Origin: an uncultured Alphaproteobacteria bacterium
Lineage (GTDB): Bacteria; Pseudomonadota; Alphaproteobacteria; SP197
NCBI GenBank assembly: GCA_958295695.1
Contig: OY282363.1
Span: forward strand, 1,738,225-1,802,224
Length of the DNA stretch: 64,000 nt
Reading direction: 5' to 3'
Shown here: positions 1,362 through 33,919 of the stretch, piece by piece
How the letters are laid out: each line of letters begins with the position of its first letter
Position numbering within the stretch: position 1 is the first letter of the stretch
Notes under the pieces: generated by a model
Database searches by the model: none
The model's input: only the letters and a program-made list of their open reading frames with translations
What the model was told of the DNA's origin: nothing
Position numbers and translations under genes: made by a program

Positions 1362-1910
1362 CTACTCGGTCGCCGCGGCCTCATCCTCTTCCTTCATCTG
1401 CTTGAGCAGTTCGGCGTTGTCCATCATGGCCTGCTTGCGGGCGCTACAGGAGCAACCGCCGTACTGGGCCCAGGTCACGGGATCGACGAAGGGGCCCGAC
1501 CACATGCCGACGCCGTCCCGTTCGGCGGCCGCGGCGCGCTCGAGATACTCCGCGCCGCGGTCTTCGTCGGGCACGGCAAGCCCGGCGTCGATCATGGCGC
1601 CGGCGAGGTCGCGGCCCGCGGCGCTGCAACGGCCCACGAGGCCCGCGCCCGTTTCCGCGATGTCCGAGCAGACGACCTCGTCGGCGCCGATCGCTTCTTC
1701 GAGATAGAGCGCCGCGTCCCAGCCGCAGGACCAGACGTTGTCCCTGGAACCGCAATTCTGGGTGATGGTCGGCGCGTGTACGCCATGGAGGGTCACCTCC
1801 CGTTCGCCGAACCGCACGGTGTCGCCGTCCATCACCATGGGTTGGCCGGCGAACTCGGCGAACGCCAGAGCGGGCGCCAGAGCGAGGATTGCCGTCAGCA
1901 GACGTTTCAC
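1362..1910 (-). CDS. secreted thermonuclease (SNase-like) family protein
   Basis: This is the C-terminal 182 codons of ORF 1362..2696. A GTG start at 1910 is preceded by GGAGGG. The signal peptide is VKRLLTAILALAPALAFA. An SNase-like core is present (MDGDTVRFG..V.LHGVHAP...GRCSAAGRDLAGAMIDAGLAV). Confidence 0.75.
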   Translation of the reverse strand: MKRLLTAILALAPALAFAEFAGQPMVMDGDTVRFGEREVTLHGVHAPTITQNCGSRDNVWSCGWDAALYLEEAIGADEVVCSDIAETGAGLVGRCSAAGRDLAGAMIDAGLAVPDEDRGAEYLERAAAAERDGVGMWSGPFVDPVTWAQYGGCSCSARKQAMMDNAELLKQMKEEDEAAATE

Positions 1911-1984
1911 GGTGTCCCTCCATCGTGTTTGCCGAGCGACCGGAGTATGGCCCAGGCGCGGGAACCGCGCCAAGAGGCCGGATT

Positions 1985-2788
1985 TCACGTTTCCGCGCGC
2001 CGCAGAACGGCGATGAGCTCGTCTTCGAACGGAACGAGCGCGAGGTCGCGGCCGATGCGGGCGGCCAGCGCTTCGACGTGGCTCCGGTAGGTCTCCCGCA
2101 TGCCCTTCTCCCGGCCGCCGAGCGACCGTGCGGGGTAGGTGACGACCACTTGGGGGACGTCGGCGAGGCGCCGGAGCAGCGCGAGGGACGCGCCGTCGTC
2201 CTGCCGGTCGAGGCAGGGCAGGGTTTTGAGCGCCAACGCCAAGTCCGCGCCGCCGCTCTCGATTCCGCCCAGAACGTCGGCCCACAGGCTTTCGCCCGGC
2301 CGGCCGAGGCGCTTGAGAAGCCGCCCCGTCGCCTCCGCGACGCGGCGGTTCGCCTCCACGGCGCGGTAGCGGGTCGAGGGCGGTAGACCCATGAACGGCA
2401 GCGCGAAACCGTTGAAACCCGCCGCGACATCCAGGATGTGCGCGGGGAACCCGGTCTGGGCCCAGATGGCGGCGTAGAAGGCGTCCAGACGGTCGAGCCG
2501 CTCCGCGCTGGAGCGGTGCAGGCGGAGGACCGCCCGGCATGTCTCGACGATGTCGGCGCCGGTGTCCAGCGCATCGAGCCGGCGTTCGAGCGCGCGCAGG
2601 CTCCCGGGATCGAGGTAGGCGCCGAAAGCCTGATGCAACTTGCGCTTGGCGGCCTTCAACGCCTCGGCGGGCCTCGAATGCCGCTCGATCGCCCATCGCG
2701 CCGTTCGCTCCAGGGCCTCGGGCGCCAGGTCGCGGTACTTCGACGATGACGAGAGGACCCCGACGACCGAAGCGAGGGGATCAGCCAT
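1985..2788 (-). CDS. FmrO/Rmt/Arm-family 16S rRNA (guanine1405-N7)-methyltransferase homologue
   Basis: The 267-aa product is collinear with remembered RmtB/ArmA motifs: SSKYRDLAPEALERT; KLHQAFGAYL; LRLHRSSAERLDRLDAFYAAIW; ILDVAAGFNGFALPFM; DLALALKTLPCLDRQ; VVVTYPARSLGGREKGMRETY. The ATG at 2788 overlaps the upstream stop by 8 nt. Confidence 0.85.
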   Translation of the reverse strand: MADPLASVVGVLSSSSKYRDLAPEALERTARWAIERHSRPAEALKAAKRKLHQAFGAYLDPGSLRALERRLDALDTGADIVETCRAVLRLHRSSAERLDRLDAFYAAIWAQTGFPAHILDVAAGFNGFALPFMGLPPSTRYRAVEANRRVAEATGRLLKRLGRPGESLWADVLGGIESGGADLALALKTLPCLDRQDDGASLALLRRLADVPQVVVTYPARSLGGREKGMRETYRSHVEALAARIGRDLALVPFEDELIAVLRRAET

Positions 2789-3866
2789 CGGCCTCGCTCC
2801 GGCGCATCCTGTCGATCAACCGGGCGTAGAATCCGAGGTTGTGGCGCGTGGCCAGCCGCTCCGCCGCCGCATCGCCGATCTTGAAGAGATGATGAAGGTA
2901 GGCGCGCGAGGGGCCTTCGGGATCGAGGGACGGGTCTAGGGCCGACCGGTCTCGCGAGTGCCGTTCATGCTCCATGTAGAGAACATCATAAGATTTATTA
3001 TTTTTCAATATATTATCACTATTATCTAATGTAATATATAAACGCTTGCGACGAGCGTTGCGAGTGGGCAGGGCGCAGTCGAACAGACGGTAGCCGGCCC
3101 GCCAGGCCGCGAGCATGTTTTCCGGCTTTCCGATGCCGAGCGCATGCTTGGGGGCGTCCGCGGGCAGCAGGTCCGCGGTCATGGCGACCATGTCCGTCAG
3201 CAGGCCGTCGTCGCCGATGGGCCAGCCGCCGAAGCCGAAACCGTCGAAACCCATGCCGGCGAGCTCGCCGGCGCAACGTCTGCGCAGGTCGGGATCGGCG
3301 CCGCCCTGGACGACCGCGAAGAGCAGGGGGCGCCCGGCGGCGGCGGCGCCCGGTTCGCAGCCGGCCCGGGCGACGAATTCGTCGCGGCAGCGCCGCGCCC
3401 AGTCGAGCGTCCGTTCGATCCCGGCCCGCTGCGCCTCGGCGGGATCGTTGGGGTGGGTGCACTGGTCGAGGCAGAACAGGATGTCGGCGTCGAGATCGAG
3501 CTGGCGCCGGATACACTTCTCGGGCGTGAGGAGGCGCTTCCTGGCGCCCTTTTCGTGCCGGTAGACGAAGCCCCTGTCGGTCACGCTGCCGAGGCCCGCG
3601 CCGGACGCGGCCATCGACCACGCCTGGAAGCCTCCGGAATCGGACGCGGCGATGCCGTTCCAGCCCATGAAGCGGTGGACGCCGCCCACGGCCTTCACGG
3701 TCGAGGCGCCCGGCCGCGTGGCGAGATGCAGGCTGTTCACCATCAGCGCCTCGACGCCGCATTCGGCGAGGTCGCGGGAATCGAGACCCTTCACGACCGC
3801 GCGCGTGCCGTCGGGCAGGAACGCCGGCAGGCGGAGCGGGCCGCGGCGGGTGCCGAGGACCTTCAC
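2781..3866 (-). CDS. tRNA-guanine transglycosylase (TGT) fold protein, divergent (no Zn-cysteine cluster)
   Basis: The 361-aa product carries TGT motifs: LPAFLPDGT, SDSGGFQAW, LFCLDQCT, FGFGGW, ALGIGKPEN, LFDCALPTRNARR, SRAYLHHL, RHNLGFYARLI. The CxCxxC zinc motif is replaced by SLDPEG. The GTG start at 3866 overlaps the rsmI stop (GTGA). Confidence 0.85.
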   Translation of the reverse strand: MKVLGTRRGPLRLPAFLPDGTRAVVKGLDSRDLAECGVEALMVNSLHLATRPGASTVKAVGGVHRFMGWNGIAASDSGGFQAWSMAASGAGLGSVTDRGFVYRHEKGARKRLLTPEKCIRRQLDLDADILFCLDQCTHPNDPAEAQRAGIERTLDWARRCRDEFVARAGCEPGAAAAGRPLLFAVVQGGADPDLRRRCAGELAGMGFDGFGFGGWPIGDDGLLTDMVAMTADLLPADAPKHALGIGKPENMLAAWRAGYRLFDCALPTRNARRKRLYITLDNSDNILKNNKSYDVLYMEHERHSRDRSALDPSLDPEGPSRAYLHHLFKIGDAAAERLATRHNLGFYARLIDRMRRSEADG

Positions 3867-4573
3867 GCCCGGCCCTTCGTCCGCGGGAACTTCGGGTTGT
3901 CGCCGGCGATCACGACCGTGACCTCGCCCCTGGGCGTCTCCTCCGAGAACCGCGCCGCGAGGGTCGAGATCCAGCCCCGGGCGGTTTCCTCGAACATCTT
4001 GGTGAGCTCGATGCAGACCGCCGCCCTGCGGTCGCCATAGACCTCCAGCGCGTCGGCCAGCAAGGCGCCCAGCCGGTGGGGCGATTCGAACAGCACCTGG
4101 GTGTGGCCGCTGCCGGTTTCGGCGGCCAGGAAGGTCCGCCGCTTGCCGGCCTTGCGCGGCGGGAAGCCGCGGAACGTGTAGCTCGCCGTCGGCAGGCCCG
4201 AGAGCGCGAGCGCGGTGGCGACCGCCGTCGGTCCCGGAACCGCCTCGACCGCGAAACCCTCTTCGGTGGCCATACGGACCGCGCGAAAACCGGGATCGCT
4301 GAGCCCCGGCATGCCGGCGTCGGTGGCGAGCCCCACCTTGAGACCCCGGCGCAGCAGGCCCGCCATGCGTTCCGTGGCCCGGTCCTCGTTATGGTCGTGG
4401 CAGGAGAAGACCACGGGCGGGCTGCGCAGGCCGAAGCGCTCGTAGAGCTTGCGTGTGCGGCGCGTGTCCTCGCAGGCGAGAGCGTCGAGCGAACCCAGGG
4501 TATCGAGGACCCGCTTCGAAATGTCGTCCAGGTTGCCGATAGGCGTGCCGATCAGGATGAGCGTGCCCGTCAT
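3863..4573 (-). CDS. rsmI: 16S rRNA (cytidine1402-2'-O)-methyltransferase RsmI-like
   Basis: An internal ATG at 4573 in ORF 3863..4714 is preceded by GGAAGG. RsmI pattern: LILIGTPIGNLDDISKRVLDTLGSLDALACEDTRRTRKL...ATDAGMPGLSDPGF...VPGPTAVATALALSGLP...FESPHRL...ELTKMFEE. Confidence 0.85.
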   Translation of the reverse strand: MTGTLILIGTPIGNLDDISKRVLDTLGSLDALACEDTRRTRKLYERFGLRSPPVVFSCHDHNEDRATERMAGLLRRGLKVGLATDAGMPGLSDPGFRAVRMATEEGFAVEAVPGPTAVATALALSGLPTASYTFRGFPPRKAGKRRTFLAAETGSGHTQVLFESPHRLGALLADALEVYGDRRAAVCIELTKMFEETARGWISTLAARFSEETPRGEVTVVIAGDNPKFPRTKGRA

Positions 4574-4632
4574 GCGCCTTCCGTTCTTGACCCCGCGTCC
4601 GCGCCCCGTTTCCATGCCCGCGTTCGGGCGGG

Positions 4633-6729
4633 TTGTCGAGCATGGCGGGTTCGAAGGAGACCCTCGCGGCCCTGGTGGCGCCGCGGCGCATCGCGGTGGT
4701 CGGCGCCACCCCACGCGAGGGCGCGGTGGGCAACCGGGTGATCCGGCATGTCGCCGGGCCGCGCTTCGCCGGCGGCGTCGTCGCGGTCAACCCGGGCTAC
4801 GGCGAGGTGCTCGGCCGCACTTGCCACCCTTCGCTGGAAGCGCTTCCCGACGCCGCCGATTGCGCGGTCATGTGCGTCGGCGACAACCGCGTCGAGGCGG
4901 CCGTCGAGGACGCCGCGCGCGCCGGCGTCAAGGCGGTCGTCCTGCTCGGCCGCCTCTACGATCCGGGCCACGGCGGCCCCACGCTCCCGGAGCGTGTCGC
5001 GGGCCTCTGCCGGGAGGCCGGCATGGCCGCCTGCGGGGCGAACTGCATGGGTGTGTTCAACACCATCGACGATGTGTGCCTGGCCATGAGCCACCTGCCC
5101 GGGCTGGACCGGCCCGGGCGCATCGGCCTGCTGTCCCACAGCGGCTCGACCTGGTCGGGGCTGGGCGGAAATCACCGGCCGTTGCGTTTCGGGATCGGCG
5201 TCTCGATGGGCAACGAGCTCGTGACGGGCCTGGCGGACTATCTCGAGTTCCTCGTCGAACGTCCCGAAACCTCCGCCATCGGTCTCGTGCTGGAGACGGT
5301 GCGCGACGGCGACCGTTTCGTCGCCGCCGCGGAGGCGGCGGACAGGGCCGGCGTCCCCCTCGTCGCCCTGAAACTCGGCAAGACCGAGAAGGCGCGCGGG
5401 TTCGCGCTCTCCCACAGCGGCGCCCTGGCGGGCGACGAGCGGGTCTACGACGCCGTGTTCCGCCGCCGCAACGTCATCGGCGTCGACACGCTCGACGAGA
5501 TGGCGGATACGCTGGAGGCGATGGCCTGCGGCCGCGCGCCCACGGCCGACACGGTTGGAATCCAGACAGATTCCGGCGGCGAGCGGCAGCTCATCGCCGA
5601 TCTCGCCGAGCGCAACAAGGTGCCGCTCGCTGTCTTCGGCGAGGCCACCCGGGCGGCGCTGGCCGGGGTGCTCGATCCGGGCCTGGAGCCCGACAACCCC
5701 GTGGATTACTGGGGCGAGGGAGGTCTTCCCGTCGCGCCCAGGGTCATGGACGCGATCGCGCGGGCGCCGGAGGTCGGGGTCGTGGTCTTCTCCACCAACA
5801 TGGTGTCGGGCCGTGCGCTGCTCAACGCCTCGACCGCCGCGCTCGAGGACGCCCACCGGGCGACGGACAAGCCCTGCATGATGCTGGCGAACATCTCCGA
5901 CGCCGTCGACGCCGGGGAGGCCGCGCGCCTCCGCGACGCGGGAATCCCCGTCCTTTCGGGCACCGAGACCGGTCTCAGGGCGATCGGCCATCTGATCGGA
6001 TGGCACGCGCGCCGGAGAGAGAGCGGAGAGCGCGGCGGCGCGGTCGAACCACCGGATTCCGGGATCGTGGCGTACTGGCGTCGGCGGCTCGAGGACCGCG
6101 CGCCGGCGCCGGAGGAGGCGATCGCCATGGTCGCCGATTTCGGCGTGCCGGCGCCCGAGACCGCGGTGTGCGCGGACGAGCGGGACGCGGTCGCCGCGGC
6201 GGAACGCATCGGATTCCCGGTCGTGCTGAAGACGGCGGACCCTTCGATCCCGCACAAGACCGACGTGGGCGGCGTTGTTCTGGATATCGGGACCGATGAC
6301 GAGCTTCGCGCGGCCTACCGGGCCATGGCCGGCGCGCTCGGATCCCGCGTCCTGATCCAGCCGATGGTCTCCCCAGGTGTCGAGATGCTCGTCGGGATGA
6401 CGTCGGATCCGACCTTCGGGCCGGTCATGACCCTGGCGACGGGCGGTGTCCTGACGGAGGTGCTGGACGACGCGGTGGCGGCGGCGCCGCCGGTGTCGCC
6501 CGGCGAGGCCGCCGATCTGGTCGCCGGCCTCAAGGGTTCGGTCCTGCTCGATGGCGTGCGCGGCGCGCGGCCGGCGGACCGCGACGCGCTGGCCCGGGCC
6601 GTGTCGCGCCTCTCGGCGATGGCGGTGGCGCTCGGCGACCTGATCGGCGCGTTCGACGTCAATCCCCTGATCGTCCACGAGCGGGGCGTGACCGCCGTCG
6701 ACGCGCTGGTGACGCCGCGGGGACCGTGA
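4633..6729 (+). CDS. acetate/acyl--CoA ligase (ADP-forming) family protein (CoA-binding + ATP-grasp domains)
   Basis: The 698-aa product has an N-terminal CoA-binding pattern (RRIAVVGATPREGAVGNRV) and a succinyl-CoA-synthetase-like flavodoxin region. The C-terminal ATP-grasp region contains GFPVVLKTADPSIPHKTDVGGV. The start could be the ATG at 4642 rather than the TTG at 4633. Confidence 0.8.
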   Translation: MSSMAGSKETLAALVAPRRIAVVGATPREGAVGNRVIRHVAGPRFAGGVVAVNPGYGEVLGRTCHPSLEALPDAADCAVMCVGDNRVEAAVEDAARAGVKAVVLLGRLYDPGHGGPTLPERVAGLCREAGMAACGANCMGVFNTIDDVCLAMSHLPGLDRPGRIGLLSHSGSTWSGLGGNHRPLRFGIGVSMGNELVTGLADYLEFLVERPETSAIGLVLETVRDGDRFVAAAEAADRAGVPLVALKLGKTEKARGFALSHSGALAGDERVYDAVFRRRNVIGVDTLDEMADTLEAMACGRAPTADTVGIQTDSGGERQLIADLAERNKVPLAVFGEATRAALAGVLDPGLEPDNPVDYWGEGGLPVAPRVMDAIARAPEVGVVVFSTNMVSGRALLNASTAALEDAHRATDKPCMMLANISDAVDAGEAARLRDAGIPVLSGTETGLRAIGHLIGWHARRRESGERGGAVEPPDSGIVAYWRRRLEDRAPAPEEAIAMVADFGVPAPETAVCADERDAVAAAERIGFPVVLKTADPSIPHKTDVGGVVLDIGTDDELRAAYRAMAGALGSRVLIQPMVSPGVEMLVGMTSDPTFGPVMTLATGGVLTEVLDDAVAAAPPVSPGEAADLVAGLKGSVLLDGVRGARPADRDALARAVSRLSAMAVALGDLIGAFDVNPLIVHERGVTAVDALVTPRGP

Positions 6730-6824
6730 GTGTCCGGTGGCGCGGCCCATGCAGATTTCGCATGGATGGGGCGACGAAATCCCGCTACCGCGCGGGCCGG
6801 CGGAAAACTATCTCGCCCCTCGAC

Positions 6825-6849
6825 GGCCCCGGACGAAGGCGGGCCTTTT
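6825..6849 (+). terminator. possible intrinsic terminator after the acyl-CoA ligase gene
   Basis: GGCCCCG / CGGGCC stem (one bulged C) with loop GACGAAGG, followed by TTTT at 6846-6849. It lies ~100 nt after the stop at 6729. Confidence 0.35.
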
Positions 6850-6868
6850 GCCGGCGAGGAACAAGGCC

Positions 6869-7039
6869 ATGTCCAACATTCTCCGCAAGCTGCGCGCCGA
6901 GTGGCGGGTGAAGAGCATGCGCCGGGAGCTCGCCGGCCTGACGGACGGGCAGCTCGACGATCTCGGCATCCATCGCGGTCAGATCGCCGATCTGGCGCGG
7001 TACTGCCACGGCCTCGGGCCGCGTCCAGACAGCATCTGA
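6869..7039 (+). CDS. DUF1127 domain small protein
   Basis: An internal ATG at 6869 in ORF 6737..7039 is preceded by GAGGAA. The 56-aa product MSNILRKLRAEWRVKSMRRELAGLTDGQLDDLGIHRGQIADLAR has the DUF1127 signature (L..L.D..L.DIGI.R..I). Confidence 0.8.
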   Translation: MSNILRKLRAEWRVKSMRRELAGLTDGQLDDLGIHRGQIADLARYCHGLGPRPDSI

Positions 7040-7197
7040 CATCCGCCCGGCTTCCTCCGGCCCGGAGTATCGCGCGACAGGGTTCCCGAGGCTGGCGTAC
7101 TTCGGACGCCACGACAAACCCTGTCCGCGCCGTCCGAGGCCGATTGCCGCGCGACTCGCCAACCTGTATCGTCCGGCCGGTCAGCCGGAGGCGTCCG

Positions 7198-8358
7198 ATG
7201 AATCCGACCGAGATGTACGGCCCGCTCCCGGGCGGGTTGCACGACGATCCGCGCCGATCCTACACGATGGCCTCGCGCTACTACACCGACCCCGCGGTTC
7301 TCGACGCGGAGATGGACAGGATCTTCGCGCGTTCGTGGCTCTTCGTGGGTCACGAAAGCCGGATCGCCGAACCGGGAAGCTACAGGACGGTCACGGTCGC
7401 CGACGAGAGCCTGGCGCTGGTCCGCGGCCGCGACGGCGAGCTCCGCTGCTTCTACAACGTGTGCCAGCATCGCGCGCACCGCATCCTGACCGGCGAGGGC
7501 GCGCTCAAGCTCACCATGGTGTGCCCCTACCACGGCTGGGCCTACAACCTGGACGGCACACTGAGGACGGCGCGCGGGTGCGAGAACGTCGAGAACTTCG
7601 ACAAGAGCGAATTCGGCCTCGAGCAGGTGCGTGTGGAAACCATGCTGGGTCTGATCTTCGTCAACCTCGACCCCGGCGCGCGGCCGTTCCGCGAACAATA
7701 TGCCGGACTGGAGGAGGACATCCTGCGCTGGATGCCGCGCGCCGACGGGCTCGGCTTCGCCCGCGCGCGGGATTTCACGATCGAGGCCAACTGGAAGGTC
7801 GTGATCGACAACTTCCAGGAATGCTACCACTGCGAGCCGGCGCATCCGGCCTTCGTCGATATGGTGGCGATGCCGACCTACCGCAACAGGACGCACCGGT
7901 TCTGGTCGGCCCAGACCTCGGACAAGCCGAGTTCCAGGAACAGTTCCGCCTACGCCTTCGAGACCGGTGACGTGGATTTCGGCTATGCGGGCTACTTCGT
8001 CTGGCCGAACCTGACGATCTGGCTGATGCCGGGCGAGCCGAACCTCATGACCCTGCAGATGCTGCCGGACGGTCCGGAACGTTGCGTCGAACACCTGCAT
8101 TGGCATTCGCTGGGCGGCGAACTGACCGGGCAGGCCGTGTCCGCCATCGACTATGTCGTCGATGTTCTGCAACCCGAGGACATCTCGATTTGCGAAAGCG
8201 TCCACCTGGGCCTGAAGTCGCGCGGCTACGACCGGGGCCGCTTCATCGTCGACCGCGACCGGAGCCACATCAGCGAGCACGGCGTCCACCACTTCCACAT
8301 GCTGGTGATGCAGGCGCTGGAGGGCGGACCGTCCCCGGCGACACAGGCCGCGGAGTAG
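7198..8358 (+). CDS. Rieske [2Fe-2S] aromatic-ring-hydroxylating oxygenase alpha subunit family protein
   Basis: An internal ATG at 7198 in ORF 6730..8358 is preceded by GGAGG. The Rieske motif is CQHRAH..17..CPYHGW. The mononuclear-iron region is NFQECYHCEPAHP. No reductase partner lies in the window. Confidence 0.85.
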   Translation: MNPTEMYGPLPGGLHDDPRRSYTMASRYYTDPAVLDAEMDRIFARSWLFVGHESRIAEPGSYRTVTVADESLALVRGRDGELRCFYNVCQHRAHRILTGEGALKLTMVCPYHGWAYNLDGTLRTARGCENVENFDKSEFGLEQVRVETMLGLIFVNLDPGARPFREQYAGLEEDILRWMPRADGLGFARARDFTIEANWKVVIDNFQECYHCEPAHPAFVDMVAMPTYRNRTHRFWSAQTSDKPSSRNSSAYAFETGDVDFGYAGYFVWPNLTIWLMPGEPNLMTLQMLPDGPERCVEHLHWHSLGGELTGQAVSAIDYVVDVLQPEDISICESVHLGLKSRGYDRGRFIVDRDRSHISEHGVHHFHMLVMQALEGGPSPATQAAE

Positions 8359-9542: not shown

Positions 9543-9586
9543 CTCCGTTTCCTAGATTAGAATAATTCCAAATATAAGAAACGGAG
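9543..9586. repeat. perfect 9-bp inverted repeat (CTCCGTTTC / GAAACGGAG) enclosing a 26-nt AT-rich loop, immediately upstream of dps
   Basis: Read directly: 9543-9551 and 9578-9586 are reverse complements. On the minus strand the 3' arm GAAACGGAG contains the dps ribosome-binding GGAG. Confidence 0.7.
9556..9572. promoter_or_regulatory. Irr/ICE-like operator (ATTAGAA-TAA-TTCCAAA) in the dps upstream region
   Basis: It matches the remembered alphaproteobacterial iron-control-element consensus TTTAGAA-N3-TTCTAAA at 12 of 14 half-site positions. The centre lies ~30 nt upstream of the dps start. Confidence 0.4.
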
Positions 9587-33337: not shown

Positions 33338-33414
33338 CGGGGCGTGGCGCAGTCCGGTAGCGCACCTGCTTTGGGAGCAGGGGGGCGCTGGTTCGAATCC
33401 AGCCGCCCCGACCA
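33338..33414 (+). tRNA. tRNA-Pro (anticodon UGG)
   Basis: I folded the cloverleaf by eye. The acceptor stem is CGGGGCG/CGCCCCG, the anticodon stem-loop is CCTGC-TTTGGGA-GCAGG, and the T arm is GCTGG-TTCGAAT-CCAGC. The 3' CCA is encoded. Confidence 0.9.
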
Positions 33415-33842: not shown

Positions 33843-33919
33843 GCGCCCTTAGCTCAGCCGGATAGAGCAACGGCCTTCTAAGCCGTAGGTCCCAGGTTCG
33901 AATCCTGGAGGGCGCGCCA
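33843..33919 (+). tRNA. tRNA-Arg (anticodon UCU)
   Basis: The acceptor stem is GCGCCCT/AGGGCGC, the D arm is AGCTCAGCCGGATAGAGC, the anticodon stem-loop is ACGGC-CTTCTAA-GCCGT, and the T arm is CCAGG-TTCGAAT-CCTGG. The CCA is encoded. Confidence 0.9.

What the first reader, a model, noticed from the sequence alone, without database searches (positions are those of the whole stretch)
2976..3044. 69-nt AT-rich, rare-codon patch embedded in-frame in a GC-rich gene
Positions 2976-3044 contain 13 G/C out of 69 nt by my count, in a window where coding DNA is overwhelmingly G/C at third positions.

- The patch is in-frame in the TGT-like gene and encodes RLYITLDNSDNILKNNKSYDVLY.
- That peptide still aligns with the Tgt segment LFVTDGVVKIRNAKYKSD, so it is not a foreign insertion at the protein level.
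- 19 of 20 consecutive codons end in A/T, including two TTA Leu codons and one ATA Ile codon.

Possible meanings:
- gene-conversion from a low-GC homologue;
- a rare-codon translational brake, similar in spirit to TTA/bldA control in high-GC actinomycetes;
- an internal promoter for the downstream methyltransferase (TTACAT-16 nt-TATATT is readable on the coding strand);
- an AU-rich RNase E or nucleoid-protein site.
Basis: seen in the sequence. Interest (0 to 1): 0.6.

Follow-up and report, generated by a model that had tools for sequence, protein, structure and literature searches.

The report
Conserved AT-rich island inside Tgt-like gene
A 69-base AT-rich, rare-codon stretch inside a GC-rich enzyme gene is real and has kept its odd base composition, but not its sequence, across a whole group of marine alphaproteobacteria, so selection probably maintains it as an expression control point just upstream of a ribosomal-RNA methyltransferase gene.

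Summary
Positions 2976-3044 hold 13 G/C in 69 nt in a 69.8% GC window, and this is the only such stretch in 64 kb. An independent assembly carries the same patch, so it is not an artefact.

The patch is in frame, at codons R275-Y297 of a Tgt-family gene. That gene sits in a conserved operon: rsmI-like, then tgt-like, then rmt/fmrO-like.

The key result is comparative:
- In 13 codon-aligned orthologues from alphaproteobacterial MAGs (69-85% amino-acid identity), the same codons are AT-rich at all three codon positions. Clade GC3 is about 0.35 there, against about 0.82 elsewhere.
- The peptide and the DNA sequence turn over quickly.
- One nested lineage has lost the patch and three have partly eroded it.
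- Homologous operons in other phyla, and the tgt genes next to rmtG, rmtB2 and rmtD2 on plasmids, lack it.

This excludes recent gene conversion and argues for long-term selection on base composition. No conserved RNA structure, Rfam family or fixed promoter motif was found.

The mechanism is unresolved. I favour an intra-operon nucleic-acid element, namely an internal promoter or RNA-polymerase-binding island. The rivals are an AU-rich RNase E entry site and a rare-codon translational pause. Interest is moderate.

The parts
2976..3044 (-). AT-rich, rare-codon patch (13/69 G+C), covering codons R275-Y297 of the Tgt-like gene. The maximal AT-scoring segment is 2974-3042.
   Evidence: an independent assembly (L175) carries it
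2976..3041 (-). Codons 276-297, a beta-hairpin. The AlphaFold model has strands at 275-279 and 293-297 and a low-confidence tip loop at 280-292. It lies between the last barrel strand, which carries the catalytic Asp263, and the C-terminal subdomain.
   Evidence: this is the most variable peptide segment in the clade
2781..3866 (-). Tgt-family gene (361 aa). It is divergent: GGWPIGD replaces the canonical GGLAVGE, and the CxCxxC zinc site is missing.
1985..2788 (-). FmrO/Rmt-family gene, 16S rRNA (guanine1405-N7) methyltransferase-like. Its ATG overlaps the tgt-like stop codon by 8 nt.
3863..4573 (-). RsmI-like gene, 16S rRNA C1402 2'-O-methyltransferase. The ORF runs to 4714, but the 236-aa homologues point to a start at 4573. 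Its stop codon overlaps the tgt-like start.
3007..3035 (-). The only sigma-70-like match in 1900-5000: ATTACA, 17 nt, TATATT, on the coding strand inside the patch.
   Evidence: not positionally conserved in orthologues
3041..3059 (-). Terminator-like hairpin AACGCT-CGTCGCA-AGCGTT, followed by TATATATT, at the 5' edge of the patch.
   Evidence: only a 3-bp stem survives in the clade consensus
2792..2800 (-). Shine-Dalgarno-like GGAGCGAGG just upstream of the fmrO-like ATG. Most orthologues have GAGGAGG here, so the downstream gene could be translated without coupling.
   Evidence: for the sequence; alignment A3

Best explanation
The patch is an ancient AT-rich island that selection maintains. 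It has been accommodated in the one part of the Tgt-like protein that tolerates almost any residue, the tip of a flexible beta-hairpin. What is conserved is base composition, not the peptide, a DNA motif or an RNA fold.

I infer that it works at the nucleic-acid level, as an expression control point inside the rsmI-like, tgt-like, rmt-like operon, about 190-260 nt upstream of the rmt-like start codon. The concrete mechanism I favour is AT-rich DNA that recruits RNA polymerase. This would act as an internal promoter, giving the rmt-like gene (which has its own Shine-Dalgarno sequence) and the gene after it expression that is independent of rsmI and tgt.

What is shown:
- the patch is real;
- it is ancestral to the clade;
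- AT enrichment holds at all three codon positions and at synonymous sites of conserved residues;
- the sequence turns over quickly;
- some lineages have lost or eroded it.

What is inferred:
- selection acts on composition (my estimate about 0.85);
- the target is nucleic acid rather than ribosome speed (about 0.6);
- the specific role is a promoter (about 0.3).

The confidence value given for this explanation refers to the specific promoter mechanism.
For: **Comparative composition.**
- In 8 genome-derived orthologues, the equivalent 60 nt have GC 0.22-0.47, against 0.63-0.70 for the rest of the gene. About 70 outgroup Tgt-like genes show almost no drop.
- In the clade codon alignment, GC3 is about 0.35 over residues 272-305 and about 0.82 elsewhere.
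- GC1, GC2 and GC3 are all depressed.
- At conserved 4-fold sites the AT fraction is 0.65 inside the patch and 0.13 outside. At 2-fold sites it is 0.73 against 0.30. Third-base entropy is similar inside and outside, so the constraint is on composition rather than on a motif.
- The patch is the most AT-rich 60 nt in 11 of 14 clade loci of 3.5-9 kb, intergenic DNA included.

**Evidence that the composition is actively maintained.**
- Against the nearest species (L161), nt identity is 0.90-0.91 outside the patch and 0.59 inside. Seven of the eight purely synonymous differences are A/T in the window and G/C in L161.
- The window's patch is nearer to distant clade members than to L161. So erosion is fast once constraint lapses, and retention elsewhere implies selection.

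**Evidence for the promoter reading.**
- The only sigma-70-like site in 3.1 kb is in the patch, on the coding strand.
- Weak matches in orthologues favour the sense strand, 16 against 6.
- The rmt-like gene has a conserved GAGGAGG-type Shine-Dalgarno sequence.
- Recoding GC-rich mycobacterial genes with rare codons created intragenic transcription starts (PMC10055193).
Against: - There is no direct transcript evidence.
- The -35/-10 hexamers are not positionally conserved. Five of 13 patch-bearing orthologues have no match of 8/12 or better.
- Ordinary promoter regions in this window are not AT islands. The operon's own upstream intergenic region (4573-4633) is 62-68% GC, and no other 69-nt stretch falls below 40% GC. 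The patch is therefore far more AT-rich than a promoter needs here.
- The tgt-like and rmt-like genes overlap by 4-8 nt, so they are likely to be translationally coupled and an internal promoter is not required.
- Every observation is also compatible with an RNase E site, a nucleoid-protein site or a rare-codon pause.
Confidence: 0.3

Rival explanations
1. Rare-codon translational pause. The 22-30 codons are the slowest to decode in the gene. They would stall ribosomes after the (beta/alpha)8 barrel has emerged, so the barrel can fold before the C-terminal subdomain is made. That subdomain has lost its zinc site in this clade. Alternatively, the pause tunes coupled translation of the rmt-like gene.
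For: - It is the rarest-codon 22-codon window in 64 kb and holds 2 of the 3 TTA codons in about 15,800 codons.
- Position is conserved while sequence is not.
- The length matches typical rare-codon clusters.
- It sits on the hairpin right after the last barrel strand and before the C-terminal subdomain.
- The clade with the patch is the clade that lost the CxCxxC zinc site.
Against: - Synonymous changes alone would be enough for a pause, yet GC1 and GC2 are also strongly depressed. The amino acids themselves were driven to AT-rich codon families.
- High-GC outgroups with the same fold have no patch.
- L168 lost the patch, and L161, L170 and L006 eroded it, without regaining a zinc site.
- TTA and ATA codons are not positionally conserved.
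Confidence: 0.25
2. Intracistronic AU-rich RNase E entry site, of the kind found in the puf operon. The patch is the only long single-stranded AU-rich stretch in a highly structured GC-rich polycistronic mRNA. Cleavage there would set the half-life of the operon mRNA, or separate the rsmI-tgt segment from the rmt segment.
For: - The patch has the highest predicted accessibility in the 2.85-kb operon mRNA. For a 20-mer, P(unpaired) is 0.16, against 0.05 or less elsewhere.
- The patch is unpaired in the clade consensus structure.
- RNase E needs composition rather than a motif, which fits conservation of composition alone.
- There is a precedent in GC-rich alphaproteobacteria: rate-limiting RNase E cuts at AU-rich sequences inside the pufQ and pufL coding regions create segmental stability differences (PMC6238624).
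Against: - No RNA-end data are available.
- 66-90 nt is much more than one cleavage site needs.
- A cut inside the tgt-like ORF destroys that message.
- The genes look translationally coupled, which argues against a need for different segment stabilities.
Confidence: 0.2
3. Binding or nucleation site for an AT-preferring nucleoid-associated protein of alphaproteobacteria, such as MucR or GapR. Binding would silence or roadblock the operon, which carries an aminoglycoside-resistance-type methyltransferase.
For: - AT content is about 80% against a genome value of about 30%.
- Conservation is of composition only.
- The patch is restricted to an alphaproteobacterial clade, although the same operon exists in many phyla.
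- MucR prefers AT-rich DNA irrespective of motif (PMC9410896).
Against: - The operon is syntenic and vertically inherited, not a foreign island.
- There is no second AT-rich partner nearby for DNA bridging.
- TpA steps and A-tracts are not enriched across the clade.
- Whether these genomes carry mucR was not checked.
Confidence: 0.1
4. A neutral relic. A low-GC segment was acquired once by the clade ancestor, for example by conversion from a low-GC homologue, and is slowly ameliorating. Alternatively, the segment escapes GC-biased gene conversion because it is too divergent to recombine.
For: - Erosion is greatest in the genomes with the highest GC3 (L170, L006, L161), and the patch is completely lost in L168.
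- The peptide is weakly constrained.
Against: - Clade members are only 69-85% identical in protein, so silent sites are saturated, yet patch GC3 stays at 0.23-0.33 in most.
- L161 shows that erosion is fast relative to flank divergence.
- The peptide has turned over repeatedly but keeps AT-rich codon families.
- The other variable loop, at residues 168-180, is GC-normal.
Confidence: 0.07
5. A sequencing or assembly artefact, or a chimera with a low-GC organism.
For: None beyond the oddity of the composition.
Against: - An independent assembly carries the same patch with one synonymous difference.
- The patch is in frame, and its length is conserved.
- It is present in 13 of the 14 codon-aligned genes from different samples and assemblers.
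Confidence: 0.01

Closest known systems
AU-rich intracistronic RNase E sites of the puf operon (Rhodobacter capsulatus and R. sphaeroides)
   Same: Both are AU-rich stretches embedded in coding sequence of a polycistronic mRNA in a GC-rich alphaproteobacterium, and both depend on composition rather than a motif (PMC6238624).
   Different: No cleavage is demonstrated here. The patch is much longer (66-90 nt), and it lies near the 3' end of a middle gene that overlaps its downstream neighbour.
Positionally conserved rare-codon clusters (co-translational folding pauses)
   Same: Both are clusters of the host's rarest codons, conserved in position but not in sequence among orthologues, near a domain boundary. 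This comparison rests on established knowledge of rare-codon cluster studies, not on a test run here.
   Different: Here the amino acids themselves are shifted to AT-rich codon families, with GC1 and GC2 depressed. The feature is confined to one clade although the fold is shared widely.
Intragenic promoters created by AT-rich or rare-codon sequence in GC-rich bacteria
   Same: AT-rich codons in a GC-rich ORF generate -10-like elements and internal transcription starts (PMC10055193). A sigma-70-like match lies in the patch.
   Different: Those promoters were artificial or spurious. This patch has been maintained over long evolutionary time, and its hexamers are not conserved.
TTA/bldA control in Streptomyces
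   Same: Both involve a very rare TTA Leu codon in a high-GC genome.
   Different: TTA is not conserved in position or even in presence across the clade. The whole patch is AT-rich, not just one codon. No bldA-like regulated tRNA is known here.
Xenogeneic-silencer targets (MucR in alphaproteobacteria; intragenic Lsr2 sites in actinomycetes)
   Same: Both are AT-rich DNA far above the genome average, recognised by composition.
   Different: The patch is not part of a horizontally acquired island. It is only about 70 bp long, with no nearby partner site.
Modification-tunable transcripts (Q34-dependent decoding of TAT/TAC; V. cholerae tgt)
   Same: 9 of the 22 patch codons are NAU codons read by GUN-anticodon tRNAs, which are the substrates of canonical Tgt (PMC11703503).
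   Different: Codons for other amino acids are equally AT-shifted. The enzyme here has an altered base pocket, so it may not make Q34 at all.

Membership tests
Tgt family (queuine/preQ1 tRNA-ribosyltransferase, PF01702) | Significant match to the family profile over the full length | tested here: met
   PF01702 at E = 5.6e-79; TIGR00449 superfamily score 249 bits against a cut-off of 47.6
Tgt family (queuine/preQ1 tRNA-ribosyltransferase, PF01702) | Equivalog-level score for bacterial tRNA-guanosine(34) transglycosylase | tested here: not met
   TIGR00430 scores 255.8 bits, below the cut-off of 306.75
Tgt family (queuine/preQ1 tRNA-ribosyltransferase, PF01702) | Catalytic aspartates (Z. mobilis D102 and D280) | tested here: met
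   DSGGFQ (D76) and LFDCALPTR (D263) align with the Z. mobilis motifs
Tgt family (queuine/preQ1 tRNA-ribosyltransferase, PF01702) | Zinc site CxCxxC...H, and the GGL[AS]VGE base-pocket motif | tested here: not met
   The three Cys are absent in the whole alphaproteobacterial clade. GGWPIGD replaces GGLAVGE.
Conserved rare-codon cluster / translational pause | Local cluster of codons that are rare in the host genome | tested here: met
   Lowest 22-codon mean ln w in 64 kb (-2.33, against a median of -0.26)
Conserved rare-codon cluster / translational pause | Positional conservation among orthologues | tested here: met
   GC3 trough at residues 272-305 in 13 of the 14 codon-aligned genes of the clade
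Conserved rare-codon cluster / translational pause | Measured ribosome pausing, or a folding defect on recoding | not testable with these tools
   Needs ribosome profiling or recoding experiments
Intragenic sigma-70 promoter | -35/-10 hexamers with correct spacing | tested here: met
   ATTACA-17-TATATT, 9 of 12, at 3035..3007 on the coding strand
Intragenic sigma-70 promoter | Conservation of the hexamers in orthologues | tested here: not met
   Matches of 9/12 or better in only 5 of 14 sequences, with no fixed register
Intragenic sigma-70 promoter | Mapped primary transcription start | not testable with these tools
   No transcript data for these uncultured organisms
puf-type intracistronic RNase E site | Single-stranded AU-rich segment in a polycistronic mRNA | tested here: met
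   Highest predicted unpaired probability in the operon mRNA; unpaired in the consensus fold
puf-type intracistronic RNase E site | RNase E-dependent 5'-monophosphate ends | not testable with these tools
   Needs TIER-seq or an equivalent method
Xenogeneic-silencer (MucR/H-NS-like) target | AT content well above the genome average | tested here: met
   81% AT against 30%
Xenogeneic-silencer (MucR/H-NS-like) target | Lies in horizontally acquired DNA | tested here: not met
   The operon and its flanks are syntenic across the clade, and the patch is not an insertion
Recent gene conversion from a low-GC homologue | Patch absent from close relatives, with an abrupt foreign-like segment | tested here: not met
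   The patch is ancestral to the clade. The window's patch resembles those of other clade members.
TTA/bldA-type codon control | Conserved TTA codon(s) in the regulated gene | tested here: not met
   TTA occurs in 8 of 13 patches at differing positions and is absent from 5
Structured cis-regulatory RNA (Rfam family or conserved fold) | Covariance-model hit, or a consensus structure with covariation | tested here: not met
   No relevant Rfam hit at E <= 10. RNAalifold gives -3.45 kcal/mol with a covariation term of +0.07.

The most novel reading that the evidence does not exclude
The patch could be a codon-level sensor that links the Tgt-like enzyme to its own product. In the window, 9 of the 22 patch codons are NAU codons (10 counting the single NAC, TAC297). 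These encode Asn, Asp and Tyr (His belongs to the same group) and are read by GUN-anticodon tRNAs, the substrates of canonical Tgt. Translation of the Tgt-like gene, and of the coupled Rmt-type 16S rRNA methyltransferase gene, would then depend on the wobble-modification state of those tRNAs. That would make it a self-tuning, modification-tunable transcript in an aminoglycoside-resistance-type module.

The evidence does not exclude this reading:
- The N/D/H/Y fraction in the patch is 0.35, with 63% U-ending. Outgroups show 0.25 and 38%.

The evidence gives it no specific support either:
- Codons for other amino acids are equally AT-shifted.
- The enzyme's base pocket is non-canonical.
Probability: 0.04. 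Interest if true: 0.8.

Novelty: new member of a known kind. Interest (0 to 1): 0.45.

Why it matters
This is a clean natural example of selection on base composition alone inside a coding sequence. The peptide, the DNA sequence and the RNA fold all drift, yet about 70 nt stay 70-80% AT in 63-73% GC genes across a deep clade. The AT-rich state erodes quickly where constraint lapses.

That makes it a convenient test case for separating three roles that are often confused for AT-rich or rare-codon patches in high-GC bacteria: an internal promoter or protein-binding site, an RNase E entry site, and a translational pause. A single recoding experiment could tell them apart.

The setting adds interest. 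The patch sits directly upstream of an Rmt/FmrO-type 16S rRNA m7G1405 methyltransferase gene, in the chromosomal counterpart of the tgt-rmt modules found with rmtB, rmtD and rmtG on clinical plasmids. How such modules are expressed in their natural hosts therefore has some relevance to aminoglycoside resistance.

Tried and rejected
- **Exact-protein look-ups.** Look-ups of the window protein and of P0001 found no contig on record. The near-identical P0121 did find one.
- **Rfam.** A permissive search found only a chance snoRNA hit outside the patch.
- **RNAalifold.** The patch-to-fmrO region shows no conserved structure.
- **Motif-level conservation at synonymous sites.** Third-base entropy is 1.17 inside the patch and 1.08 outside, so there is no motif.
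- **Conserved sigma-70 hexamers.** Not found.
- **TpA-step, A-tract or strand-skew signature of a DNA-bending or silencer site.** No consistent signal.
- **Terminator-like hairpin at 3059..3041.** Present in the window but not conserved.
- **Plasmid tgt genes beside rmtG, rmtB2 and rmtD2.** They have no patch, so published work on those contexts cannot inform on it.
- **NAU-codon specificity.** Not separable from the general AT enrichment.
- **Other low-GC windows in clade loci.** L002:1040-1190 and L006:~8800 are, respectively, intergenic or gene-disrupting, and intergenic. Inspection of their sequences shows nothing resembling the patch.
Full report
**1. The observation**

Positions 2976-3044 hold 13 G/C in 69 nt, in a window that is 69.75% GC. 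The binomial probability of so few G/C is 3e-18. No other 69-nt stretch of the 64 kb has fewer than 28 G/C.

The stretch lies in frame on the minus strand, in a 361-aa ORF (2781..3866). It encodes RLYITLDNSDNILKNNKSYDVLY, residues 275-297.

I built a codon table from 44 window genes (about 15,800 codons). TTA makes up 0.2% of Leu codons, and two of its three occurrences are in the patch. The patch is the rarest-codon 22-codon window in the whole 64 kb.

An independent assembly from another sample (L175) is 99.6% identical over the gene. It carries the same patch with a single synonymous change.

**2. Context**

The ORF matches Pfam TGT at E = 5.6e-79 but scores below the NCBIfam equivalog cut-off for bacterial Tgt. 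It keeps both catalytic aspartates. It has GGWPIGD where canonical enzymes have GGLAVGE, and it lacks the CxCxxC zinc site.

The gene is the middle one of a tight operon on the minus strand:
- an RsmI-like 16S rRNA C1402 2'-O-methyltransferase upstream (3863..4573);
- an FmrO/Rmt-like 16S rRNA m7G1405 methyltransferase downstream (1985..2788).

The stop and start codons of neighbouring genes overlap. Relatives show the same order and the same divergent acyl-CoA synthetase neighbour.

The patch aligns without a length change to Z. mobilis Tgt at about residues 292-312. In an AlphaFold model (mean pLDDT 86), it is a beta-hairpin with strands at 275-279 and 293-297. The tip loop has the lowest confidence of any internal segment of the protein. 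It follows the last barrel strand and precedes the C-terminal subdomain.

**3. The decisive comparison**

Relatives of the protein fall into two groups:
- an alphaproteobacterial clade (64-86% identity, no zinc site);
- many outgroups from other phyla (55% identity or less, zinc site kept).

*Composition in the clade.*
- In eight genome-derived clade loci, the equivalent 60 nt have GC 0.22-0.47, against 0.63-0.70 for the rest of the gene. About 70 outgroup genes show essentially no drop.
- With more clade loci added, a codon alignment shows a GC3 trough of about 0.35 over residues 272-305, against about 0.82 elsewhere.
- GC1, GC2 and GC3 are all depressed.
- At conserved 4-fold sites the AT fraction is 0.65 inside the patch and 0.13 outside. 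At 2-fold sites it is 0.73 against 0.30.
- Third-base entropy is the same inside and outside, so composition is conserved rather than a motif.
- The patch is the most AT-rich 60 nt in 11 of 14 clade loci, intergenic DNA included.

*Sequence turnover.* The peptide is the most variable part of the protein. Patch nt identity is below rest-of-gene identity in 77 of 78 pairs.

*Loss and erosion.* An NJ tree built without the patch columns places the one clade member that lacks the patch (L168, GC3 0.83) inside the clade, so that is a secondary loss. L161, L170 and L006 are partly eroded, with GC3 about 0.6-0.7.

*Elsewhere.* The tgt genes next to rmtG, rmtB2 and rmtD2 on clinical plasmids have no patch.

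**4. Why this implies selection**

Clade members are only 69-85% identical in protein (the frameshifted L009 copy is 64%), so silent sites are saturated. Even so, patch GC3 stays at 0.23-0.33 in most of them.

The nearest species (L161) is 90-91% identical in nucleotides outside the patch but only 59% inside it. Seven of the eight purely synonymous differences are A/T in the window and G/C in L161.

The window's patch is closer to those of distant clade members (0.67-0.68) than to L161's. So L161 eroded quickly while the window kept the ancestral state.

Comparison with other clade members suggests that two synonymous changes in the window lineage went from G/C to A/T, against the genomic bias. 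Erosion is fast where constraint lapses, so long retention elsewhere argues for purifying selection on base composition.

Recent gene conversion and artefact are excluded. An ancient neutral relic is unlikely.

**5. What the selected property is**

*Negative results.*
- No Rfam family matches.
- No RNA fold is conserved.
- No sigma-70 hexamers are conserved.
- No TpA-step or A-tract signature is present.
- The terminator-like hairpin at the patch's 5' edge is not conserved.

*Positive but non-discriminating results.*
- The only sigma-70-like match in 3.1 kb lies in the patch, on the coding strand.
- Weak matches in orthologues lean towards the sense strand, 16 against 6.
- The rmt-like gene has its own conserved Shine-Dalgarno sequence.
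- The patch is the most accessible stretch of the operon mRNA.
- It is the rarest-codon stretch in the window.

All three codon positions are shifted. The amino acids were pushed into AT-rich codon families, although a pause would need only synonymous change. For that reason I think a nucleic-acid-level target is somewhat more likely than ribosome speed.

Among nucleic-acid roles, I favour an RNA-polymerase-binding island, that is, an internal promoter for the rmt-like gene. Rare-codon recoding of GC-rich mycobacterial genes has been shown to create intragenic transcription starts (PMC10055193).

The case against is that normal promoter regions in this window are not AT islands and that the genes look translationally coupled.

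The other candidates remain serious:
- an AU-rich RNase E entry site has a direct precedent in the puf operon of GC-rich alphaproteobacteria (PMC6238624);
- MucR-type proteins bind AT-rich DNA by composition (PMC9410896);
- a rare-codon pause at the boundary between the barrel and the C-terminal subdomain.

My rough split is:

| Explanation | Weight |
|---|---|
| Internal promoter | 0.3 |
| Rare-codon pause | 0.25 |
| RNase E site | 0.2 |
| Nucleoid-protein site | 0.1 |
| Neutral relic | 0.07 |
| Other | remainder |

**6. Comparison with known systems, and novelty**

Each candidate mechanism is a known kind of element. This instance has not, to my knowledge, been described, and the plasmid tgt-rmt modules in the literature lack the patch.

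It fails the membership tests for three of the families considered:
- a bldA-type TTA switch, because TTA is not conserved;
- a structured RNA;
- a recent conversion tract.

I file it as a new member of a known kind: a conserved intragenic AT-rich, rare-codon island.

The most novel reading not excluded is a sensor made of NAU codons read by Tgt-substrate tRNAs. These are 9 of the 22 patch codons (concept from PMC11703503). Codons for other amino acids are equally AT-shifted, and the enzyme's base pocket is non-canonical, so I give this about 4%.

**7. Verdict**

The patch is real, statistically extreme, ancient, and maintained for its composition. The mechanism is unresolved but can be tested with one recoding experiment or with metatranscriptome mapping. 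Interest is moderate (0.45).

Noticed in passing
window 1985-4573 (minus strand); loci L010-L100, L171-L173: The divergent Tgt-like subfamily (42% identity or more to the window protein) is almost always followed within 0-150 nt by an FmrO/Rmt-family 16S rRNA m7G1405 methyltransferase gene. It is often preceded by RsmI or RsmH. This holds across many phyla (Latescibacterota, Chloroflexota, Planctomycetota, Armatimonadota, Nitrospiraceae). It also holds on clinical plasmids: RsmH-Tgt-RmtG, Tgt-metallophosphoesterase-RmtB2 and Tgt-RmtD2. Canonical Tgt genes (41% identity or less) have no such neighbour. This suggests an uncharacterised functional link between a guanine-exchange enzyme and modification of helix 44 of 16S rRNA.
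   Followed up: partly
window 2781-3866, residues 213-219 and 311-320: The alphaproteobacterial clade has lost the three zinc-binding cysteines of Tgt. It carries GGWPIGD in place of the GGL[AS]VGE base-pocket motif while keeping both catalytic aspartates. Its substrate base or RNA may therefore differ from preQ1 and tRNA G34.
   Followed up: partly
L002:1040-1190: In the complete MAG chromosome OZ242015.1, a stretch of about 150 nt with 8-20% GC interrupts the acyl-CoA synthetase gene that is divergent from rsmI. The ATP-grasp part of the gene appears to be missing. This is a second extreme AT island in a clade genome, and it shows nothing resembling the tgt patch.
   Followed up: partly
L009:4001-5089: The Tgt-like gene of MAG A_MB180 has frameshifts and stop codons between about residues 95 and 170. 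It is either a pseudogene or an assembly error. It still has the AT-rich patch, with GC 0.27.
   Followed up: no
L168:5781-8883; L169:1-270 and 5977-7326: In two clade members the rsmI-tgt-fmrO operon is flanked by transposase genes (Transposase_31, rve, DDE_Tnp_1). L168 is also the member that lost the AT patch. This may bear on how rmt modules get mobilised.
   Followed up: no
window 9553-9581: This is the second most AT-rich segment of the window (TAGATTAGAATAATTCCAAATATAAGAAA, 29 nt). It looks like an ordinary regulatory region, but its genic context was not checked. It shows that normal AT-rich signals here are no more than about 30 nt long.
   Followed up: no
window 3041-3059 (minus strand): A terminator-like hairpin, AACGCT-CGTCGCA-AGCGTT, runs directly into the U/A-rich patch. 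It is encoded by the invariant NARRKR residues. Only a 3-bp stem is kept in the clade.
   Followed up: partly
window about 1362-1910 (minus strand); L162:5958-6530, L164:5958-6527, L170:5970-6536: A conserved gene of about 182-190 aa follows the fmrO-like gene in most clade loci. Pfam gives only a faint SNase hit (in L170), and the window copy starts with a stretch that looks like a signal peptide. It may belong to the same transcription unit.
   Followed up: no
protein P0122 (cluster of P0001): A 309-aa variant is identical to the window protein through the patch. It diverges and ends right after residue 306, which suggests a contig break or frameshift just downstream of the AT-rich stretch in another assembly.
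   Followed up: no
window 33338-33414 and 33843-33919: These are the only tRNA genes in the window: tRNA-Pro(TGG) and tRNA-Arg(TCT). The latter reads the rare AGA codon. No tRNA-Leu(UAA) or tRNA-Ile gene lies in the window.
   Followed up: no
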